The notes beneath the pieces were generated by a model. It ran no database searches. It had not been told where the DNA came from and saw nothing but the letters and a program-made list of their open reading frames with translations. A stretch of 4,503 bases of DNA from a virus. This document shows positions 1 through 4,503 of the stretch, in pieces. The DNA lies in UHGV virus genome UHGV-1974775. One strand, given 5' to 3'. A program made the translations under genes and the position numbers. How positions within the stretch are numbered: position 1 is the stretch's first letter; each line of letters starts with the position of its first letter.

Positions 1-617
1 AAAAAATCGTAGCCAATTCCTGGCCTGTTACTCATAGCTGAAAACTCGGGTAGGCGATGTCCATAATGCTCCTCTGAACGGGAACCGGTGACTTTTTTAA
101 CACAGTATCGCGCCACATATGCAGCCGACTCAAAGCTAAAGCCAGCAATAACAGAAAAGCCAAAAGTCCAGCATCTTTCAAGAAGCGAAGACCTAAATAA
201 ATTAAATCTTCCAGCTTTATGCAGTGTCTTATCCGGAAAATCATATCCAAAAATAATCGCATGATAATGCGGTCGCTCTAATTTAGAGCCATATTCACCA
301 CAGCCGAAAAAACGAATTGAAATATCATCAACAGACAAAGCCTTACGCAAACGCTTCATAAAATCGGTGAAATGTTTACGAACGAGAGTTCCGCCTTCGG
401 GTAAATTCTCAGGCGAATAAGTCAGGGTGATAAAACAATTGTGATCGTGCATGTGGGCTTCATGAACACAGCGGGTCGCCCAGTCACGAGAATGGGCAAG
501 ACGGCAACCGATGCACTGACCGCAAGGCAACTGAATGAATTTAGCGCCACGTGACGGCGTGAAAAAAATCTTCCCCGATGGCATCTGGTACGCGTTTAAC
601 GGACGGGTACAAGCCAT
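1..617 (-). CDS. VP4: Replication initiation protein (HUH rolling-circle endonuclease), 5' portion (codons 1-205 plus two bases of codon 206); continues at 4257..4503 across the circular junction
   Basis: Hand translation of the minus strand from ATG at 617..615 gives MACTRPLNAYQMPSGKIFFTPSRGAKFIQLPCGQCIGCRLAHSRDWATRCVHEAHMHDHNCFITLTYSPENL...RPHYHAIIFGYDF...SAAYVARYCVKKVTGS...NRPGIGYDF, with no stop before position 1. It carries the three rolling-circle motifs: motif I CFITLTY (417..437), HUH motif PHYHAIIFG (246..272) and the two-tyrosine motif YVARYCVKK (93..119; compare phiX174 gene A YVAKYVNKK). SD GGAGG at 628..624, 6 nt before the ATG. Not in the ORF track because no stop falls inside the window. 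Confidence 0.88.
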   Translation of the reverse strand, partial: MACTRPLNAYQMPSGKIFFTPSRGAKFIQLPCGQCIGCRLAHSRDWATRCVHEAHMHDHNCFITLTYSPENLPEGGTLVRKHFTDFMKRLRKALSVDDISIRFFGCGEYGSKLERPHYHAIIFGYDFPDKTLHKAGRFNLFRSSLLERCWTFGFSVIAGFSFESAAYVARYCVKKVTGSRSEEHYGHRLPEFSAMSNRPGIGYDF

Positions 618-638
618 GACACACCTCCATAATTCACG

Positions 639-660
639 TATGCGCACCTTGGTGCGCATA
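639..660. repeat. Perfect inverted repeat TATGCGCACC-tt-GGTGCGCATA; its right arm is the XerC-binding arm of the dif-like site
   Basis: rc(639..648) = 651..660 exactly (10 nt arms, GC-rich). It would fold into a hairpin in the ssDNA genome and in the rep 5' leader, about 10 nt upstream of the rep SD. Confidence 0.7.
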
Positions 661-678
661 ATGTATATTTAGTTTAAC
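651..678. other. dif-like XerC/XerD recombination site (putative attP for host-Xer-mediated integration)
   Basis: Plus strand GGTGCGCATAA-TGTATA-TTTAGTTTAAC compared with canonical E. coli dif GGTGCGCATAA-TGTATA-TTATGTTAAAT (as I recall it): XerC arm 11/11, central region 6/6, XerD arm 7/11, total 24/28. It lies in the VP8-rep intergenic region. Confidence 0.75.
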
Positions 679-692
679 AAAAACAACGACTT

Positions 693-720
693 ACGATAAT
701 TATCGTAGATCGTTACGATC
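693..720. repeat. Two adjacent palindromes ACGATAATTATCGT (693..706) and GATCGTtACGATC (708..720) sharing the half-site ACGAT/ATCGT; contains two GATC sites (708..711, 717..720)
   Basis: Both palindromes are visible directly in the sequence: four copies of the pentamer ACGAT/ATCGT in alternating orientation within 28 nt, overlapping the candidate rep promoter spacer and -10. Confidence 0.6.
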
Positions 721-731
721 AACTTTGTCAA
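702..731 (-). promoter_or_regulatory. Candidate sigma70-type promoter for rep: -35 TTGACA (731..726), 18-nt spacer, -10 TACGAT (707..702)
   Basis: Minus strand reads TGA(VP8 stop)-TTGACA-aagttgatcgtaacgatc-TACGAT. The -35 is a perfect consensus; the -10 matches TATAAT at 4 of 6 positions including the key T1, A2 and T6. Identified by eye only. Confidence 0.35.
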
Positions 732-851
732 TCAAAGACGAATACCGCCACGCATCGAACGGGCTTTAAAGTTTCGCTTATGCGTCTTTGCGTACTTACG
801 GAACGAACGACGAGAAGAACGCTTGGACATACGACGGCGAGAACGAGCCAT
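732..851 (-). CDS. VP8: Small arginine-rich DNA-binding protein (VP8/J-like), 39 aa
   Basis: Hand translation of minus strand 851..732 gives MARSRRRMSKRSSRRSFRKYAKTHKRNFKARSMRGGIRL, followed by TGA (734..732). About 40% of residues are Arg or Lys (11 R, 5 K in 39 aa). The C-terminal MRGGIRL resembles the C-terminus I recall for the Chlamydia-phage small basic ORF8 protein. ATG is 1 nt after the VP2 stop (TAA 855..853), with GGAGG at 860..856. Absent from the ORF track, probably because it is below the length cutoff. Confidence 0.72.
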   Translation of the reverse strand: MARSRRRMSKRSSRRSFRKYAKTHKRNFKARSMRGGIRL

Positions 852-852
852 A

Positions 853-1635
853 TTACCTCCTAGGGGTTACTCGGAAAAACAGGGGGGAAGAATCCCCCCT
901 TTGGTTTACGGACTTAGCACTATTAGAATCGCGAAAGCCAAAGCCATCAAGACCTGAAATACGACGTAACCAACTACCAATCGCATTACCTTGTCCGACA
1001 AACCCTTTCCCTTGAGAGTCATAATTAACCTTAAGTGATTGAGCACCAGTCGGTGTATTCAAATAATCAGCCAGAACCTTGTCCTGAACAGTTTGATACT
1101 GTGTTCTAATCCGCTGCGCAGAACTGAGGCCTGTCTGTGCTTCAATATTGGCACGACGAGAAGCCTCGGTCAAAACCTGCTGATTAATCAGATTCGACTG
1201 CGATCGCATGTTATCGGCACTCTGGATAGCCTGGTCAGCCTGAGCCGTTTTAAGACGCACATCAGCCGCGCTATTCGCAATCTGGTTACGTTGTAACGCA
1301 ATCTGAGACTCAATGCCTTCACGGGCAACCTTTTGCTGCTCACGCTTCGTCAGAGCGTCGAACGCGGCAACGGCAGAGTTAACCGCACCAGAATAATCGG
1401 CAGGGGCAGCCTGCTGAATACCGGAAGAACTGACGGAACCAAGACCACCGGAACCATTAACGGCCAGAATCGGGTTAAGACCTGCTTTTCGCAAATCCTG
1501 TACGCGGTACTGCATACCGTTTTTGGCCAAATCCATCGTTAACTTGTTCGCCTGAGCGGCGTTCTGCTGGGCAGAGTGGGCACCAAGAAGAGAACCGGCA
1601 ACGGAACCTACAGCACCTGCAATTGCTCCCCACAT
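853..1635 (-). CDS. VP2: Minor capsid / DNA pilot protein
   Basis: 260-aa ORF immediately downstream of VP1 on the same strand. It has a Gly/Ala/Ser-rich N-terminus, the motif YRVQDLRKAGLNPILAV (the AGLNP motif recalled from Microviridae pilot proteins) and a Gln/Ala-rich central region that looks coiled-coil-like. SD GAGGTG lies 5 nt upstream of the ATG at 1635. Confidence 0.78.
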   Translation of the reverse strand: MWGAIAGAVGSVAGSLLGAHSAQQNAAQANKLTMDLAKNGMQYRVQDLRKAGLNPILAVNGSGGLGSVSSSGIQQAAPADYSGAVNSAVAAFDALTKREQQKVAREGIESQIALQRNQIANSAADVRLKTAQADQAIQSADNMRSQSNLINQQVLTEASRRANIEAQTGLSSAQRIRTQYQTVQDKVLADYLNTPTGAQSLKVNYDSQGKGFVGQGNAIGSWLRRISGLDGFGFRDSNSAKSVNQRGDSSPLFFRVTPRR

Positions 1636-1649
1636 AATTTCACCTCATG

Positions 1650-1672
1650 AAAAAAAGGCCTCCGAAGAGGCC
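1650..1672 (-). terminator. Rho-independent terminator/attenuator between VP1 and VP2
   Basis: On the minus-strand transcript, 13 nt after the VP1 stop (TAA 1688..1686): GGCCUC-UUCG-GAGGCC (6-bp GC-rich stem 1657..1662/1667..1672 with a UUCG tetraloop) followed directly by seven U (1656..1650). The VP2 SD and ATG follow 14 nt later. Confidence 0.6.
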
Positions 1673-1685
1673 AAAGAGTTGGGTT

Positions 1686-3365
1686 TTAAAAATGGTCAAT
1701 AAGACCGGGTACTGAATAAACTGGCATAGGCCGCACACATTTCAGGTCAAAGAATGCATCCAGAATGAACTGAGGCTCGTCCTGAACGGCCAGAACACGA
1801 CTCATCGGTGGATTCTCTTCGATGAACTCCTGATTCAATGCGGGCAGAGAGTCGAACCGCTGGGCTAAATGCCACACATCGAGGGATTGCGGGTCTGTGG
1901 AACGTAATTTACCAGTAATCTGGGATGGACGATAGCGGTACTCCGCGTAACGTTCCTGATAGCCAAAGACTTCATCATCTTTAGCGTTGCCTTGCGCATA
2001 AATCTCCTTGTTAAGAATAGCCTGTTCGCCCAGGTGGGCCAGTGCAGGCCAGTAGAAATCAAAGCGGGTCTGACGGGAGAACATGCGCGGGATGCCTTGC
2101 TGATAGGTCAAATCTGCACGGACAGATACAAGACCAATGACAAAACAGTGCTCCACAAAAGAATGTGAAAAACCACGGTTAACACCACCGGAAACACCAT
2201 AAGCTGCGAGGTTACCTTGTGGGCTGGCATCGGTAGTCGCAGAGTTCTGAAGAACGGGATTGATATTTATATCGAACGAACCAGAGCCAAGATACTCAGG
2301 ACGCTGAACACGGGCATCAGGAGAAATGACGCCAAAATGACTGCGAATAATCTCAATGTATCGCGTACCACCGCGAGCATCACGCTCAAGCAGGCGCTGA
2401 AGCTGGAACGCCTGACGCAATGAGTTAATCGTGAGATTGTCAACAACTTCACCACCTGTCTTTTCCAAAGTAACCGGAGGTTTGCCCGGAAGGAAACCGG
2501 AAATAACGTCATAACGTCCCTGAACAGGAGATTCAGGCCAGTTAATACCATTCTGAAGGCCACCGCTCAAATAGAGACCTGTATCGGCGTCAAGACCACT
2601 ACGGGCAATATAGCCCGTACCAGCAACAGTCTGGCCGCCGGCGCCATAAGACTGCGTAAAGAACGCTAAACCATCCGGATATTCCGGATAATTCAACGAG
2701 TACGACGGCGGAACGCCTAAACCAATCTCAACACCTTCGCCTTTCTGAGGCCACGGAAGGGCACTTGTGAAGTAATCATGACGCTTGGCACGCTTACGCA
2801 GCGGGAAATTTGCGAGACCTGTTTCCGTCTCATCGCCAAGCGGAAGCGGGGCGGAATTAATCAGGTTTTCGTCACGATACCACTCGTTATAAATCAGGTT
2901 ATAAGCGCGGAACGGCAGGGCGCTTACGCTGATACCTTCGACACCTGTAGGAACACCAAAATAATCGGCAAGAGAGCCAACAGGGAAACCGCCAGCAGGG
3001 GCTGTAATCTGCGGAATCAAATAATCCGTAGAATCACCAGGGTTCTTCTGTTCTCCGTTGAATTTCTGCCAGTTATCCCAGACGAGGCGATAAGGTACAG
3101 AAAAATACTGAATATCCAGACGTAGATTATCCATGAAAGGAACCACGGGCGTGGAAAGACGCGCGAGAACACTCGTTTTAAGGTGGAACGTATCACCCGG
3201 CAAAGCCTCATCCAGAAACACGGGAATCAAATAACCAGCGTCAAAGGTGGTTTTATAACCAGAACTACGGTTAAAGACCGAACGCTGAATATTAGCACTC
3301 GGGATTACTGAAAAATTATGCTGACTTTTTGCATTACTAGGTACTTTACGACCGAATTTACTCAT
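1686..3365 (-). CDS. VP1: Major capsid protein
   Basis: 559-aa ORF. The N-terminal region (SVIPSANIQRSVFNRSSGYKTTFDAGYLIPVF...LARLSTPVVPFMDNLRLDIQYFSVPYRLVWDNWQKFNGEQKNPGDSTDYL...YFTSALPWPQKG) matches the conserved pattern of gokushovirus VP1 as I recall it from Chlamydia-phage-type capsid proteins. ATG at 3365 preceded by a G-rich SD (GAGGGGGG). It is the largest ORF and fills 37% of the genome. Confidence 0.95.
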   Translation of the reverse strand: MSKFGRKVPSNAKSQHNFSVIPSANIQRSVFNRSSGYKTTFDAGYLIPVFLDEALPGDTFHLKTSVLARLSTPVVPFMDNLRLDIQYFSVPYRLVWDNWQKFNGEQKNPGDSTDYLIPQITAPAGGFPVGSLADYFGVPTGVEGISVSALPFRAYNLIYNEWYRDENLINSAPLPLGDETETGLANFPLRKRAKRHDYFTSALPWPQKGEGVEIGLGVPPSYSLNYPEYPDGLAFFTQSYGAGGQTVAGTGYIARSGLDADTGLYLSGGLQNGINWPESPVQGRYDVISGFLPGKPPVTLEKTGGEVVDNLTINSLRQAFQLQRLLERDARGGTRYIEIIRSHFGVISPDARVQRPEYLGSGSFDININPVLQNSATTDASPQGNLAAYGVSGGVNRGFSHSFVEHCFVIGLVSVRADLTYQQGIPRMFSRQTRFDFYWPALAHLGEQAILNKEIYAQGNAKDDEVFGYQERYAEYRYRPSQITGKLRSTDPQSLDVWHLAQRFDSLPALNQEFIEENPPMSRVLAVQDEPQFILDAFFDLKCVRPMPVYSVPGLIDHF

Positions 3366-3392
3366 AAACCCCCCTCAGGGAATTGTTTAAAT

Positions 3393-3421
3393 ACTATACA
3401 AACCACTGTATAAACTGACAC
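3393..3421 (-). promoter_or_regulatory. Weak candidate promoter upstream of VP1: -35 GTGTCA (3421..3416), 17-nt spacer, -10 TATAGT (3398..3393)
   Basis: By-eye match on the minus strand: -35 matches TTGACA at 4/6 and -10 matches TATAAT at 5/6, with a 17-nt spacer; about 28 nt upstream of the VP1 ATG. Confidence 0.25.
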
Positions 3422-3465
3422 CTTTTTACAGGCTTCGTGGGAGCCGCCTGTAAGTTTCGGTGTCA

Positions 3466-3502
3466 CCTGGCACAGTTACATCAAGTAGGGCACTGTGCCA
3501 GG
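3466..3502. repeat. Perfect 11-bp inverted repeat (stem-loop) in the VP3-VP1 intergenic region
   Basis: CCTGGCACAGT (3466..3476) pairs with ACTGTGCCAGG (3492..3502); loop of 15 nt (3477..3491). Located 9 nt downstream of the VP3 stop on the coding strand, with no U-run after it. Confidence 0.65.
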
Positions 3503-3510
3503 CTGCAGGG

Positions 3511-4020
3511 TCAGGAGCCGTCTGCAGGTTTCGCGGGTTCAGAACCCGCATTTGATGCTTTATTCACATCAGCACCGGAACGCTCCCGCGGGGACGCCGG
3601 AGCAGGTTCCGACTCGCGAACCTTCGGTTCGGTCGCCGAAACCTCTCCGCCGCTCAACAATCCAAGCTCACGGGCTTTATCCCAGTTCGCCGGATCACTC
3701 ATGAATTCAACGTACTGTTTAACGTTATTACCAAACATCGCGCGAGTAGCGGACGGCAGGCTATTAAAGTCGTCGTTAACGTCGTCAATTAAAGCCATTG
3801 CGTCCACATAATCGGTAATCGCGGATGCATCGTAAAATTCAGCACGTTGAGTACTGGTAAACACGGTCGTGTCTCCCGTTCTTATCGCACGCTCAACAAT
3901 CTTATTGATGTCGCACTCATCGCGGAAATGCTGCTGGGTCATCGTGGGTTCTTTGAACTCGATGCCGGGCGACGGTGGCGGGTCATAGCGGGTATGGAAC
4001 TTACGCTTCGATGTACGCAT
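3511..4020 (-). CDS. VP3: Internal scaffolding protein
   Basis: 169-aa ORF with motifs I recognise from gokushovirus VP3 proteins: FRDECDINKIV near the N-terminus and RAMFGNNVKQYVEFMSDPANWDKARELGL later. ATG at 4020 with AAGGA 8 nt upstream. The C-terminal ~45 aa form a Pro/Ser/Ala/Glu-rich low-complexity tail. Confidence 0.8.
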   Translation of the reverse strand: MRTSKRKFHTRYDPPPSPGIEFKEPTMTQQHFRDECDINKIVERAIRTGDTTVFTSTQRAEFYDASAITDYVDAMALIDDVNDDFNSLPSATRAMFGNNVKQYVEFMSDPANWDKARELGLLSGGEVSATEPKVRESEPAPASPRERSGADVNKASNAGSEPAKPADGS

Positions 4021-4270
4021 TTTCAGAATCCTTCAGAAAGGCCGGAGTAGCTTCACAAACATAAACACGGTCAACGCTGACCGGAATAAGCTGTTCACCC
4101 TCAAAATCAAACGAAGTTACGCGATACAACGCAAAATCAGTACGCTGCATGCGGTTACAAAACGCATGCAATTGACCTTTCGCAATACCATCATGCTGAG
4201 CCATAAACATATAAACATCAGCATTAATCAGCTTGTCGTGAAATACATAAACTGCATCAGAGTGAGCCAT
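4001..4270 (-). CDS. Hypothetical 89-aa protein at the position occupied by VP5 in gokushoviruses (between rep and scaffold genes)
   Basis: ATG at 4270..4268 preceded by SD GAGGA with a 9-nt spacer (rc of 4271..4290 = aatgatGAGGAaattagaaa). The start overlaps the rep stop by 14 nt and the 3' end overlaps the VP3 start by 20 nt, a compact arrangement typical of Microviridae. I do not recognise the sequence itself, so the call is positional. Confidence 0.5.
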   Translation of the reverse strand: MAHSDAVYVFHDKLINADVYMFMAQHDGIAKGQLHAFCNRMQRTDFALYRVTSFDFEGEQLIPVSVDRVYVCEATPAFLKDSENAYIEA

Positions 4271-4503
4271 TTTCTAATTTCCTCATCATTCGCTGGAATT
4301 TAACCAGATTAAATTTATCTAAATCCTGCAAACGCCACGGGTCTAATACCTGAGCATTTAACTGGCGCTTTTCTTTATTTTGCTGCAACTTTTCCAAATC
4401 ACAGCCTGATAATAACTTGTCATAATAGCGGGGCGGTTTTATCTGACGACCGCCACGACCAATACACGCATCTGAATTAACTATGTCATCGTAATACTCC
4501 ATA
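4257..4503 (-). CDS. VP4: Replication initiation protein, 3' portion (last 81 codons plus stop), contiguous in frame with 1..617 if the molecule is circular
   Basis: ORF-track 81-aa ORF (MEYYDDIVNSDACIGRGGRQIKPPRYYDKLL...). Its first codon (4502..4500) sits immediately after the junction codon formed by positions 2,1,4503 (aaa on the plus strand = TTT, Phe), so the reading frame runs ...GIGYDFF-MEYYDD... with no stop. The combined protein is 287 aa. Confidence 0.72.
   Translation of the reverse strand, partial: MEYYDDIVNSDACIGRGGRQIKPPRYYDKLLSGCDLEKLQQNKEKRQLNAQVLDPWRLQDLDKFNLVKFQRMMRKLENGSL

What the first reader, a model, noticed from the sequence alone, without database searches (positions are those of the whole stretch)
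1..4503. Window is a whole circular genome: rep ORF runs off position 1 and re-enters in frame at position 4503
The minus-strand rep ORF starting at 617 has no stop before position 1. Positions 2,1,4503 form a sense codon (TTT), and the next codon is the ATG of the 81-aa ORF at 4502 that ends at 4257. Joined, they give a 287-aa protein with the HUH and two-tyrosine motifs in the N-terminal two-thirds, a plausible size for a gokushovirus VP4. The gene complement is complete within 4503 nt. The chance of an in-frame, stop-free join at an arbitrary window boundary is low, so the input is most likely a circular contig cut inside rep, which means an annotation pipeline treating it as linear would split or miss rep.
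Basis: partly seen in the sequence, partly recalled or inferred. Interest (0 to 1): 0.55.

Follow-up and report, generated by a model that had tools for sequence, protein, structure and literature searches.

The report
Complete circular gokushovirus genome, cut in rep
The 4503-base window is one full copy of a small circular E. coli virus (an enterogokushovirus) that happens to be written starting in the middle of its replication gene, which is correct but ordinary bookkeeping for an already known kind of phage.

Summary
Observation confirmed and interpretation supported. The minus-strand rep ORF (ATG at 617) runs off position 1. Codon 2,1,4503 is TTT, and the frame continues to the stop at 4259-4257, giving 287 aa. 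That joined protein is 100% identical to an uninterrupted rep gene in seven independent public contigs.

In a 99.98%-identical prophage contig (ENA LEEK22-1 scaffold_7355), window positions 1 and 4503 are neighbouring bases. The distance between the two dif half-site repeats flanking that prophage is exactly 4503 nt. The window carries the joined VP8-dif-VP4 junction that the integrated form lacks, so the two maps are circular permutations of each other.

After rotation, the window aligns end to end with the complete genome of Escherichia phage EC6098 (87.8% identity) and has its six-gene order: VP4-VP5-VP3-VP1-VP2-VP8. This is an Enterogokushovirus, a kind described in 2020. About 93% of the genome is coding, so an arbitrary cut nearly always splits a gene. 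Interest is low.

Seen in passing: a covarying intergenic hairpin whose loop resembles the phiX174 origin nick site. It is conserved in 238 microvirus records and I found no description of it in the searched literature.

The parts
1..617 (-). rep / VP4, 5' part: ATG 617-615, codons 1-205 plus the first two bases of codon 206. Holds the CxxCxxC motif, motif I (CFITLTY), HUH (HYH 117-119) and YVARY (167-171).
4257..4503 (-). rep / VP4, 3' part: third base of codon 206 (position 4503), codons 207-287, stop at 4259-4257. The ATG at 4502 is internal Met207, not a start codon.
4001..4270 (-). VP5 (89 aa). It overlaps the rep 3' end by 14 nt, as in EC6098.
3511..4020 (-). VP3 internal scaffolding protein (169 aa), PF09675 E=6.5e-35
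3459..3502 (-). Conserved hairpin in the VP3-VP1 intergenic region. Stem 3502-3492 / 3476-3466, loop GCCCTACTTGATGTA, 3' flank TGACACC. Probable viral-strand replication origin, with a predicted nick between 3482 (G) and 3481 (A). The function is inferred, not shown.
1686..3365 (-). VP1 major capsid protein (559 aa), PF02305 E=6.6e-185
853..1635 (-). VP2 DNA pilot / minor capsid protein (260 aa)
732..851 (-). VP8 small basic putative DNA-binding protein (39 aa), phrog_10695
651..678 (+). Phage dif-like motif GGTGCGCATAA-TGTATA-TTTAGTTTAAC (XerC arm, spacer, phage-type XerD arm). Single copy, between VP8 and VP4. This is the attP junction of the circular form.
702..731 (-). Sigma-70-like promoter match TTGACA-18-TACGAT between VP8 and dif, pointing toward rep. 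It is overlapped by the palindrome at 685-714. This is a consensus match only.

Best explanation
The window is one exact unit length (4503 nt) of the circular genome of an Enterogokushovirus (Microviridae, Gokushovirinae). It is written as the complement of the viral coding strand and linearised at an arbitrary point inside codon 206 of the rolling-circle replication initiator VP4.

The 205-codon open end at position 1 and the 81-aa ORF at 4502-4257 are two halves of one 287-aa gene. The genome encodes VP4, VP5, VP3, VP1, VP2 and VP8. It has one 28-bp dif-like site between VP8 and VP4, through which the host XerC/XerD recombinases integrate it at the E. coli chromosomal dif. It also has an intergenic hairpin that probably serves as the origin where VP4 nicks.

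Shown here: the reading-frame join, the adjacency of the window ends in near-identical DNA, the collinearity with a complete genome, the gene set and the attP-type dif junction. [quoted passage not shown] Inferred: that the sampled molecule itself was circular, and the role of the hairpin.
For: - Frame join to 287 aa. Only one of three frames is open at the 4503 end.
- The joined rep is 100% identical to intact called genes in L098, L103, L100, L099, L101, L093 and L096.
- L098 36-704 equals window 669..1 at 100%. L098 705-4558 equals window 4503..650 with one mismatch. L103 is 100% identical across the junction.
- The repeat-to-repeat distance in prophage L098 (36 to 4539) is 4503, the window length.
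- The ends of L098 are the E. coli dif flanks. The window instead joins VP8-dif-VP4.
- L100 is an independent contig at about 97% identity, with a 30-nt terminal overlap. It is cut in VP1 and has rep intact.
- A 600-nt stretch across the junction aligns without gaps to EC6098 and to two E. coli prophages.
- The rotated window aligns full length with EC6098 in one HSP at 87.8%.
- Gene families match: Phage_F, Chlamy_scaf, REP_ORF2-G2P, phrog_942 spanning residues 1-258.
- All 84 related loci then held have one tblastn HSP across the junction.
- Six-gene order, 4316-4692 bp size range, dif flanks, XerCD dependence and PCR-detected circles are reported in PMC7062461.
Against: - The window has no terminal direct repeat, so it carries no assembler signature of circularity.
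- No reads or assembly graph are available.
- The window's own source record was not found. The exact junction 40-mer is absent from IMG/VR, and the exact VP1 is not on record.
- A 20-nt direct repeat (dif half-sites) flanks the integrated form, so a circular path could in principle be an assembly product from prophage reads.
Confidence: 0.95

Rival explanations
1. The genome content is right, but the sampled DNA was only an integrated prophage or a tandem or concatemeric array. The circular 4503-nt contig would then arise by closing an assembly path through the ~20-nt dif repeat, or by cutting one unit length out of a repeat array. There would be no free circle in the sample.
For: - The near-identical genome exists integrated at E. 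coli dif in public metagenome contigs L098 and L103.
- The prophage is flanked by a 20-nt direct repeat, window 650-669.
- No terminal overlap is left in the window.
Against: - A 20-nt repeat is shorter than the k-mers normally used for final assembly.
- The attP junction in the window is exactly the product expected of XerCD excision.
- Circular EC6098 DNA is readily detected by PCR in infected and lysogenic cultures (PMC7062461).
- An independent contig (L100) of a 97% relative is also closed on itself with the same VP8-dif-VP4 junction.
- The one tandem-like candidate checked (L096) is followed by non-phage DNA.
- Either way, the joined rep and the gene map are unchanged.
Confidence: 0.08
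2. The window is a linear fragment, such as a prophage excerpt or an incomplete contig, and the in-frame join of the two end ORFs is coincidence.
For: None beyond the absence of a terminal repeat.
Against: - The joined protein is identical to intact genes in 7 contigs.
- Alignments across the junction are gap-free.
- Host flanks in relatives sit at the dif motif, not at the window ends.
- A stop-free run of 82 codons occurred in 0.2% of shuffles, and the phase must also match.
Confidence: 0.01
3. The join is real, but bases are missing or duplicated at the cut through imperfect trimming of a circular contig, so the true genome is not exactly 4503 nt.
For: Overlap trimming errors are common in circular contigs (general knowledge).
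Against: - L098 and L103 run through the junction at 100% identity with no indel.
- The unit length measured in the prophage is 4503.
- EC6098 and two E. coli prophages align across the junction with 0 gaps.
Confidence: 0.01

Closest known systems
Escherichia phage EC6098 (MT185428 / NC_048874; Enterogokushovirus EC6098; Kirchberger and Ochman 2020, PMC7062461)
   Same: - Same six genes in the same order.
- Same 14-nt VP4/VP5 overlap.
- Same dif-like motif next to VP4, with an identical phage XerD arm and spacer.
- Same intergenic hairpin.
- Rep is 96.5% identical.
- Full-length collinear alignment after rotation.
   Different: - Nucleotide identity is 87-88% genome-wide. This is below the 95% used in that paper to delimit clades, with most divergence in VP1 and VP2.
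- 4503 nt against 4526 nt.
- The first base of the XerC arm is G here and A in EC6098.
- The EC6098 record starts at dif, so its rep is not split, and it is annotated from the upstream ATG as 301 aa.
Integrated prophage in ENA metagenome contig LEEK22-1_SAMEA8072201_METAG-scaffold_7355 (L098), and E. coli chromosomal dif prophages (for example NZ_CP104500 strain E9)
   Same: - L098 differs from the window at one base in 4503 (window 2491).
- It encodes identical rep, VP5 and VP3.
- The E. coli prophages sit between hipA and the fimbrial genes at dif, and carry the same phage dif on the VP8 side.
   Different: These are the linear, integrated permutation. They are opened at dif and flanked by host DNA, with a bacterial XerD arm on the VP4 side. 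The window is the closed permutation opened inside rep.
phiX174 gene A protein and its origin (NC_001422, nick at G4305/A4306)
   Same: - The rolling-circle initiator has HUH and Y-x-x-x-Y motifs.
- The hairpin loop CTACTTG|ATGTAAC resembles the phiX origin CAACTTG|ATATTAATAAC.
   Different: - The phiX origin lies inside gene A and is not presented in a hairpin loop.
- Here the motif is intergenic, between VP3 and VP1, in a covarying stem-loop.
- Nicking here is untested.
IMEX elements that integrate at dif via XerCD (CTXphi, VGJphi and others)
   Same: No integrase gene is present. A 28-bp dif-like attP is used, and integration is at the chromosomal dif (for the relative EC6098).
   Different: - The virus is a microvirus, not a filamentous phage.
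- Both flanking sites are retained, so integration is reversible (PMC7062461).

Membership tests
Microviridae / Gokushovirinae | Major capsid protein of the F/VP1 family | tested here: met
   PF02305 Phage_F E=6.6e-185, full-length 1-501/501. phrog_514 E=4e-217.
Microviridae / Gokushovirinae | HUH rolling-circle initiator (VP4) with HUH and paired-tyrosine motifs | tested here: met
   PF23343 E=5.6e-21 and phrog_942 E=4e-114. HYH 117-119 and YVARY 167-171 read from the sequence.
Microviridae / Gokushovirinae | Chlamydia-phage-type internal scaffold VP3, and no phiX-type external scaffold (D) or spike (G) genes | tested here: met
   PF09675 E=6.5e-35. The six genes cover 93% of the genome, and none matched D or G families.
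Microviridae / Gokushovirinae | Circular single-stranded DNA genome of about 4.3-4.7 kb | tested here: inconclusive
   The length of 4503 fits. Circular topology is supported by permutation against the prophage and by adjacency of the ends. Strandedness and the physical circle cannot be read from a sequence.
Enterogokushovirus (Kirchberger and Ochman 2020) | Six-gene order VP4-VP5-VP3-VP1-VP2-VP8 | tested here: met
   The same order and overlaps as EC6098. The definition is in PMC7062461.
Enterogokushovirus (Kirchberger and Ochman 2020) | 28-bp dif-like motif with XerC and XerD arms next to VP4 | tested here: met
   Window 651-678 is identical to the phage-side dif of E. coli prophages L003, L004 and L098.
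Enterogokushovirus (Kirchberger and Ochman 2020) | Found integrated at the dif site of Enterobacteriaceae | tested here: met
   A 99.98%-identical prophage (L098) is flanked by E. coli dif-region sequence. Prophages at 86.6-89.9% identity occur in 7 of 5426 complete E. coli genomes (the two inspected lie next to hipA).
Enterogokushovirus (Kirchberger and Ochman 2020) | XerC/XerD-dependent integration and excision | not testable with these tools
   Shown experimentally only for EC6098 (PMC7062461).
Complete circular contig | Terminal direct overlap left by the assembler | tested here: not met
   No terminal repeat of 10 nt or more. It was presumably trimmed. The related contig L100 does keep a 30-nt overlap.
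Complete circular contig | The two ends are neighbours in independent sequences, with no bases lost or duplicated | tested here: met
   L098 and L103 are 100% identical through 1|4503. The unit length in the prophage is 4503. Alignment to three further relatives is gap-free.
Complete circular contig | Reads or assembly graph closing the circle | not testable with these tools
   No reads are available.

The most novel reading that the evidence does not exclude
Two untested readings remain open.

(a) The covarying intergenic hairpin (3502-3459), with the loop CTACTTG|ATGTAAC, may be the so far undescribed viral-strand origin and VP4 nick site shared by much of the Gokushovirinae.

(b) The best sigma-70-like promoter on the coding strand (731-702) lies on the other side of dif from rep. 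XerCD integration would therefore cut rep off from its promoter, and closing the circle would restore it. This would be a repressor-free, topology-based lysogeny switch. It would fit the published observation that cultures with only circular DNA release more phage than cultures with integrated prophage.
Probability: 0.3. Interest if true: 0.45.

Novelty: already known. Interest (0 to 1): 0.12.

Why it matters
The practical point is for annotation. Treated as linear, this contig yields a truncated rep with no stop codon plus a spurious 81-aa hypothetical protein. The linear ORF lister here did exactly that. Rotating the sequence to start at the dif motif or the intergenic region fixes it.

Biologically the window adds one more lineage of a phage genus described in 2020, with a near-identical copy already public. 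Together with contig L098, it documents both the integrated and the closed form of essentially the same genome, differing at one base. That is a tidy sequence-level illustration of reversible XerCD integration, but not a new idea.

Tried and rejected
- Exact 40-mer across the junction in IMG/VR: no match.
- Exact look-up of VP1: not on record, so the window's own source record was not found.
- VP1 scan of species-representative genomes: only distant relatives at 54-65% identity, in Intestinirhabdus, Phascolarctobacterium and MAGs.
- Rfam at permissive threshold: only a sub-threshold suhB-like hit on the VP1-VP2 terminator.
- Terminal-repeat test on the window: none.
- Tandem-array idea: the one contig whose phage-side dif is followed by TAA (L096) continues into non-phage DNA.
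- Literature search for the hairpin: no paper in the searchable library prints the loop sequence in a microvirus context or describes a gokushovirus origin. Hairpins in other microvirus clades are discussed in PMC9865509. Subscription literature was not searchable, so this is not proof of novelty.
- The motif within 2 mismatches is absent from Chp2 and SpV4 but present in phiMH2K.
- The 301-aa rep start at ATG 659 was considered and judged less likely than ATG 617. ATG 659 has no Shine-Dalgarno sequence and lies inside dif, and RefSeq and the gene callers use 287 aa.
Full report
**1. The observation**

The window was read in full and its ORFs listed. On the minus strand, an ORF starts at ATG 617-615 and runs for 205 codons without a stop. 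Two bases are left over at positions 2-1. Joining the ends completes the codon with position 4503 as TTT (Phe). The next codon is the ATG at 4502, and the frame stays open to the stop at 4259-4257. The product is 287 aa.

- At the 4503 end, only this one of the three minus-strand frames is open. It runs 81 codons, against stops after 5 and 6 codons in the other two.
- An 82-codon stop-free run occurred in 0.2% of composition-matched shuffles.
- The linear ORF lister reported the 81-aa piece as a separate ORF and omitted the 205-codon fragment, because that fragment runs off the end.
- The catalytic motifs, HYH 117-119 and YVARY 167-171, lie before the junction. Pfam PF23343 covers residues 60-175.

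**2. What the window is**

Megablast against phage records finds Escherichia phage EC6098 (genus Enterogokushovirus) and Microvirus mar4 over nearly the whole length. EC6098 is annotated with vp4, vp5, vp3, vp1, vp2, vp8 and a dif-motif.

The window encodes the same six genes, all on its minus strand:

| Gene | Window coordinates | Evidence |
|---|---|---|
| VP4 (rep) | 617..1 + 4503..4257 | PF23343; phrog_942 E=4e-114 |
| VP5 | 4270-4001 | weak (sub-cutoff) Pfam PF20577 and phrog_1670 matches; position as in EC6098 |
| VP3 | 4020-3511 | PF09675 E=6.5e-35 |
| VP1 | 3365-1686 | PF02305 E=6.6e-185 |
| VP2 | 1635-853 | pilot-protein PHROGs |
| VP8 | 851-732 | phrog_10695 |

Together the genes cover 4193 of 4503 nt, or 93%. 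A random linearisation point therefore falls inside a gene about 93% of the time, and inside rep about 19% of the time. A split gene at the ends of a circular contig is the expected case, not a surprise.

Seven of 5426 complete E. coli genomes carry prophages of 86.6-89.9% identity; the two inspected lie between hipA and a fimbrial operon. In both, RefSeq annotates rep as an 864-nt gene, that is 287 aa.

**3. Is the join real?**

- Profile level: phrog_942 matches residues 1-258 of the joined protein in one stretch.
- Distant relatives: all 84 loci held at that point gave a single tblastn HSP spanning residues 190-225. These were 80 IMG/VR gokushoviruses at 40-97% rep identity plus four annotated relatives. 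The junction falls just after the conserved S-x-[RK]-P-G-I-G motif.
- DNA level: the 600 nt made of 4204-4503 plus 1-300 aligns with no gaps to EC6098 (93.8%) and to two E. coli prophages (92.3-92.7%).
- Rotation: the window rotated to start at dif aligns with the complete EC6098 genome as one HSP, 1-4502 against 1-4525, at 87.8% identity.

**4. Near-identical public copies**

Exact look-ups of the VP5 and VP3 proteins returned contigs that settle the question.

- L098 is ENA ERZ28595803, LEEK22-1_SAMEA8072201_METAG-scaffold_7355, 4593 nt.
  - L098 36-704 equals window 669..1 at 100%.
  - L098 705-4558 equals window 4503..650 with a single mismatch, at window 2491.
  - Window bases 1 and 4503 are therefore neighbours in a 99.98%-identical genome.
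- L103 is a Logan assembly of ERR6279667. It is 100% identical through the same junction.
- The joined 287-aa rep is identical, residue for residue, to an uninterrupted called gene in seven contigs. These are L098, L103, L100, L099, L101, L093 (NCBI GCA_053881835.1) and L096.

**5. Circle versus prophage**

L098 is the integrated form.

- Its left end is E. coli chromosomal flank followed by a perfect bacterial dif: ATTTAACATAA-TATACA-TTATGCGCACC on the viral strand.
- Its right end is the phage dif followed by the hipA-side host flank. This is the same arrangement as in E. coli strain E9.
- The 20 nt at window 650-669 occur at both ends of the prophage. The distance between the two copies (36 to 4539) is 4503, exactly the window length.

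The window holds a single dif-like site at 651-678: GGTGCGCATAA-TGTATA-TTTAGTTTAAC. VP8 lies on one side and VP4 on the other. This is the junction expected after XerCD excision, and a single-copy prophage does not contain it.

So the prophage map is opened at dif, and the window map is opened in rep. They are circular permutations of one another, which is the classical signature of a circular element that integrates by site-specific recombination.

An independent contig, L100, gives the same picture for a relative of about 97% identity. It is Logan SRR9703290, 4543 nt, and keeps a 30-nt terminal overlap. It is cut inside VP1, and it has the same VP8-dif-VP4 junction with rep intact.

For EC6098, the literature reports the following (PMC7062461):
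- prophages of 4316-4692 bp flanked by dif motifs;
- integration dependent on xerC, xerD and an intact phage dif;
- circular phage DNA readily detected by PCR.

**6. What remains uncertain**

- The window has no terminal repeat, and no reads are available.
- I could not find the window's own record.
- Sequence alone cannot exclude that the circular path was closed by an assembler through the 20-nt dif repeat using reads from an integrated copy. That would give the same sequence and the same gene map, so it does not affect the annotation conclusion. I give it about 8%.

**7. Start codon**

The frame is open upstream to an ATG at 659, which gives 301 aa and is the form annotated for EC6098 vp4. 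That ATG lies inside the XerC arm of dif and has no ribosome-binding site. The ATG at 617 has GGAGG 7 nt upstream, and RefSeq and the gene callers of the public contigs use it. The 287-aa form is the better call.

**8. Comparison and novelty**

This is a member of Enterogokushovirus. It shares the gene order, the dif motif and integration at the E. coli dif.

- Genome-wide identity to EC6098 is 87-88%. That is below the 95% used in PMC7062461 to delimit clades, so it is a different lineage from the type phage.
- A copy differing at one base, and several relatives at about 97%, are already in public assemblies.
- Records of circular microviruses with rep crossing the coordinate origin already exist, for example phiMH2K NC_002643.

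I rate the finding correct, ordinary and already known.

**9. Seen in passing**

*Intergenic hairpin.* The VP3-VP1 intergenic region holds a hairpin on the coding strand. The stem is 3502-3492 / 3476-3466, the loop is GCCCTACTTGATGTA, and the 3' flank is TGACACC.

- Its 44 nt are 95-98% identical in otherwise unrelated microviruses, namely an Eel River pequenovirus and bajarodmic viruses. There it sits in different intergenic positions.
- The loop motif ACTTGATGTAAC, allowing one mismatch, occurs in 53 of the 86 microvirus loci then held (plus the window), on the coding strand wherever rep sets the orientation.
- A 52-nt query finds it in 238 phage records; every organism name displayed is a microvirus.
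- In an alignment of 30 sequences, 10 of the 11 stem pairs show changes on both sides. 83.9% of cells are paired, against 27-40% when the partner is slid. None of 500 shuffles reached the observed score.
- The loop CTACTTG|ATGTAAC resembles the phiX174 origin CAACTTG|ATATTAATAAC, where the A protein nicks at G4305/A4306.
- phiMH2K has a similar hairpin, with loop ...CTACTTGTTGTAA. Chp2 and SpV4 do not within two mismatches.
- I infer that this is the viral-strand origin. I found no description of it in the searchable literature.

*Other features.*
- A promoter-like site, TTGACA-18-TACGAT at 731-702, is overlapped by a 30-bp palindrome at 685-714. It lies across dif from rep, so integration would separate the two.
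- A perfect 10-bp inverted copy of the XerC arm sits next to dif, at 639-648 against 651-660.
- A terminator-like hairpin with a T-run lies between VP1 and VP2, at 1672-1657.

Noticed in passing
window 3459-3502 (minus strand), VP3-VP1 intergenic region: Hairpin with an 11-bp covarying stem, a near-invariant loop CTACTTGATGTA(AC) and a conserved 3' flank TGACACC. It is found in 238 phage records (all displayed names are microviruses), in 53 of the 86 microvirus loci then held, and in phiMH2K. The loop resembles the phiX174 origin nick site CAACTTG|ATATTAATAAC, so this is probably the viral-strand origin. I found no description in the searchable literature.
   Followed up: partly
window 3405-3465 (minus strand): A second predicted hairpin lies directly 3' of the first. 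TGACACC pairs with GGTGTCA, enclosing TTACAGGC...GCCTGTAA. The whole 145-nt intergenic region folds at -29.1 kcal/mol as DNA, z = -3.9 against shuffles. It could be a complementary-strand priming site. Untested.
   Followed up: no
window 702-731 (minus strand) and palindrome 685-714: Best sigma-70-like match on the coding strand, TTGACA-18-TACGAT. It lies between VP8 and dif and is overlapped by a 30-bp palindrome. It is conserved in all close relatives checked (the -10 element varies: TACGAT, TATGGT, TATGAT). It sits on the opposite side of dif from rep, so integration at dif would uncouple rep from it.
   Followed up: partly
window 639-660: Perfect 10-bp inverted repeat TATGCGCACC-tt-GGTGCGCATA. 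One arm is the XerC-binding arm of dif and the other lies between dif and the rep start. It is conserved, with one inner mismatch, in EC6098 and the E. coli prophages, but not in mar4 or L006. Function unknown.
   Followed up: partly
window 651 (first base of the XerC arm): The window and its near-identical prophage L098 have G here, a perfect E. coli XerC arm. EC6098 and most E. coli prophages have A on the VP4 side.
   Followed up: partly
window 1657-1672 and 881-900 (minus strand): Terminator-like hairpins on the coding strand. GGCCTCTTCGGAGGCC followed by T7 lies between VP1 and VP2; this also explains the weak Rfam suhB hit. GGGGGGATTCTTCCCCCC followed by TGTTTTT lies inside the 3' end of VP2, just before VP8.
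   Followed up: no
L096 (ENA ERZ909726, human gut metagenome contig k127_20197), 171-4690: A relative of about 97% identity is integrated next to a dif site. Its flanks differ from the E. coli hipA and fimbrial context: an HTH_32 gene and an MFS transporter lie downstream. This suggests another host or another dif-region arrangement.
   Followed up: no
L087, L090 (genome contigs): VP1 relatives of 57-65% identity lie inside large chromosomal contigs of Intestinirhabdus alba and Phascolarctobacterium faecium. These are candidate gokushovirus prophages outside Escherichia, the second outside Enterobacteriaceae.
   Followed up: no
L105 (phiMH2K NC_002643): The RefSeq record of this cultivated gokushovirus annotates rep as a joined CDS, 3651..4, across the record origin. 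This is a precedent for the same coordinate issue.
   Followed up: yes
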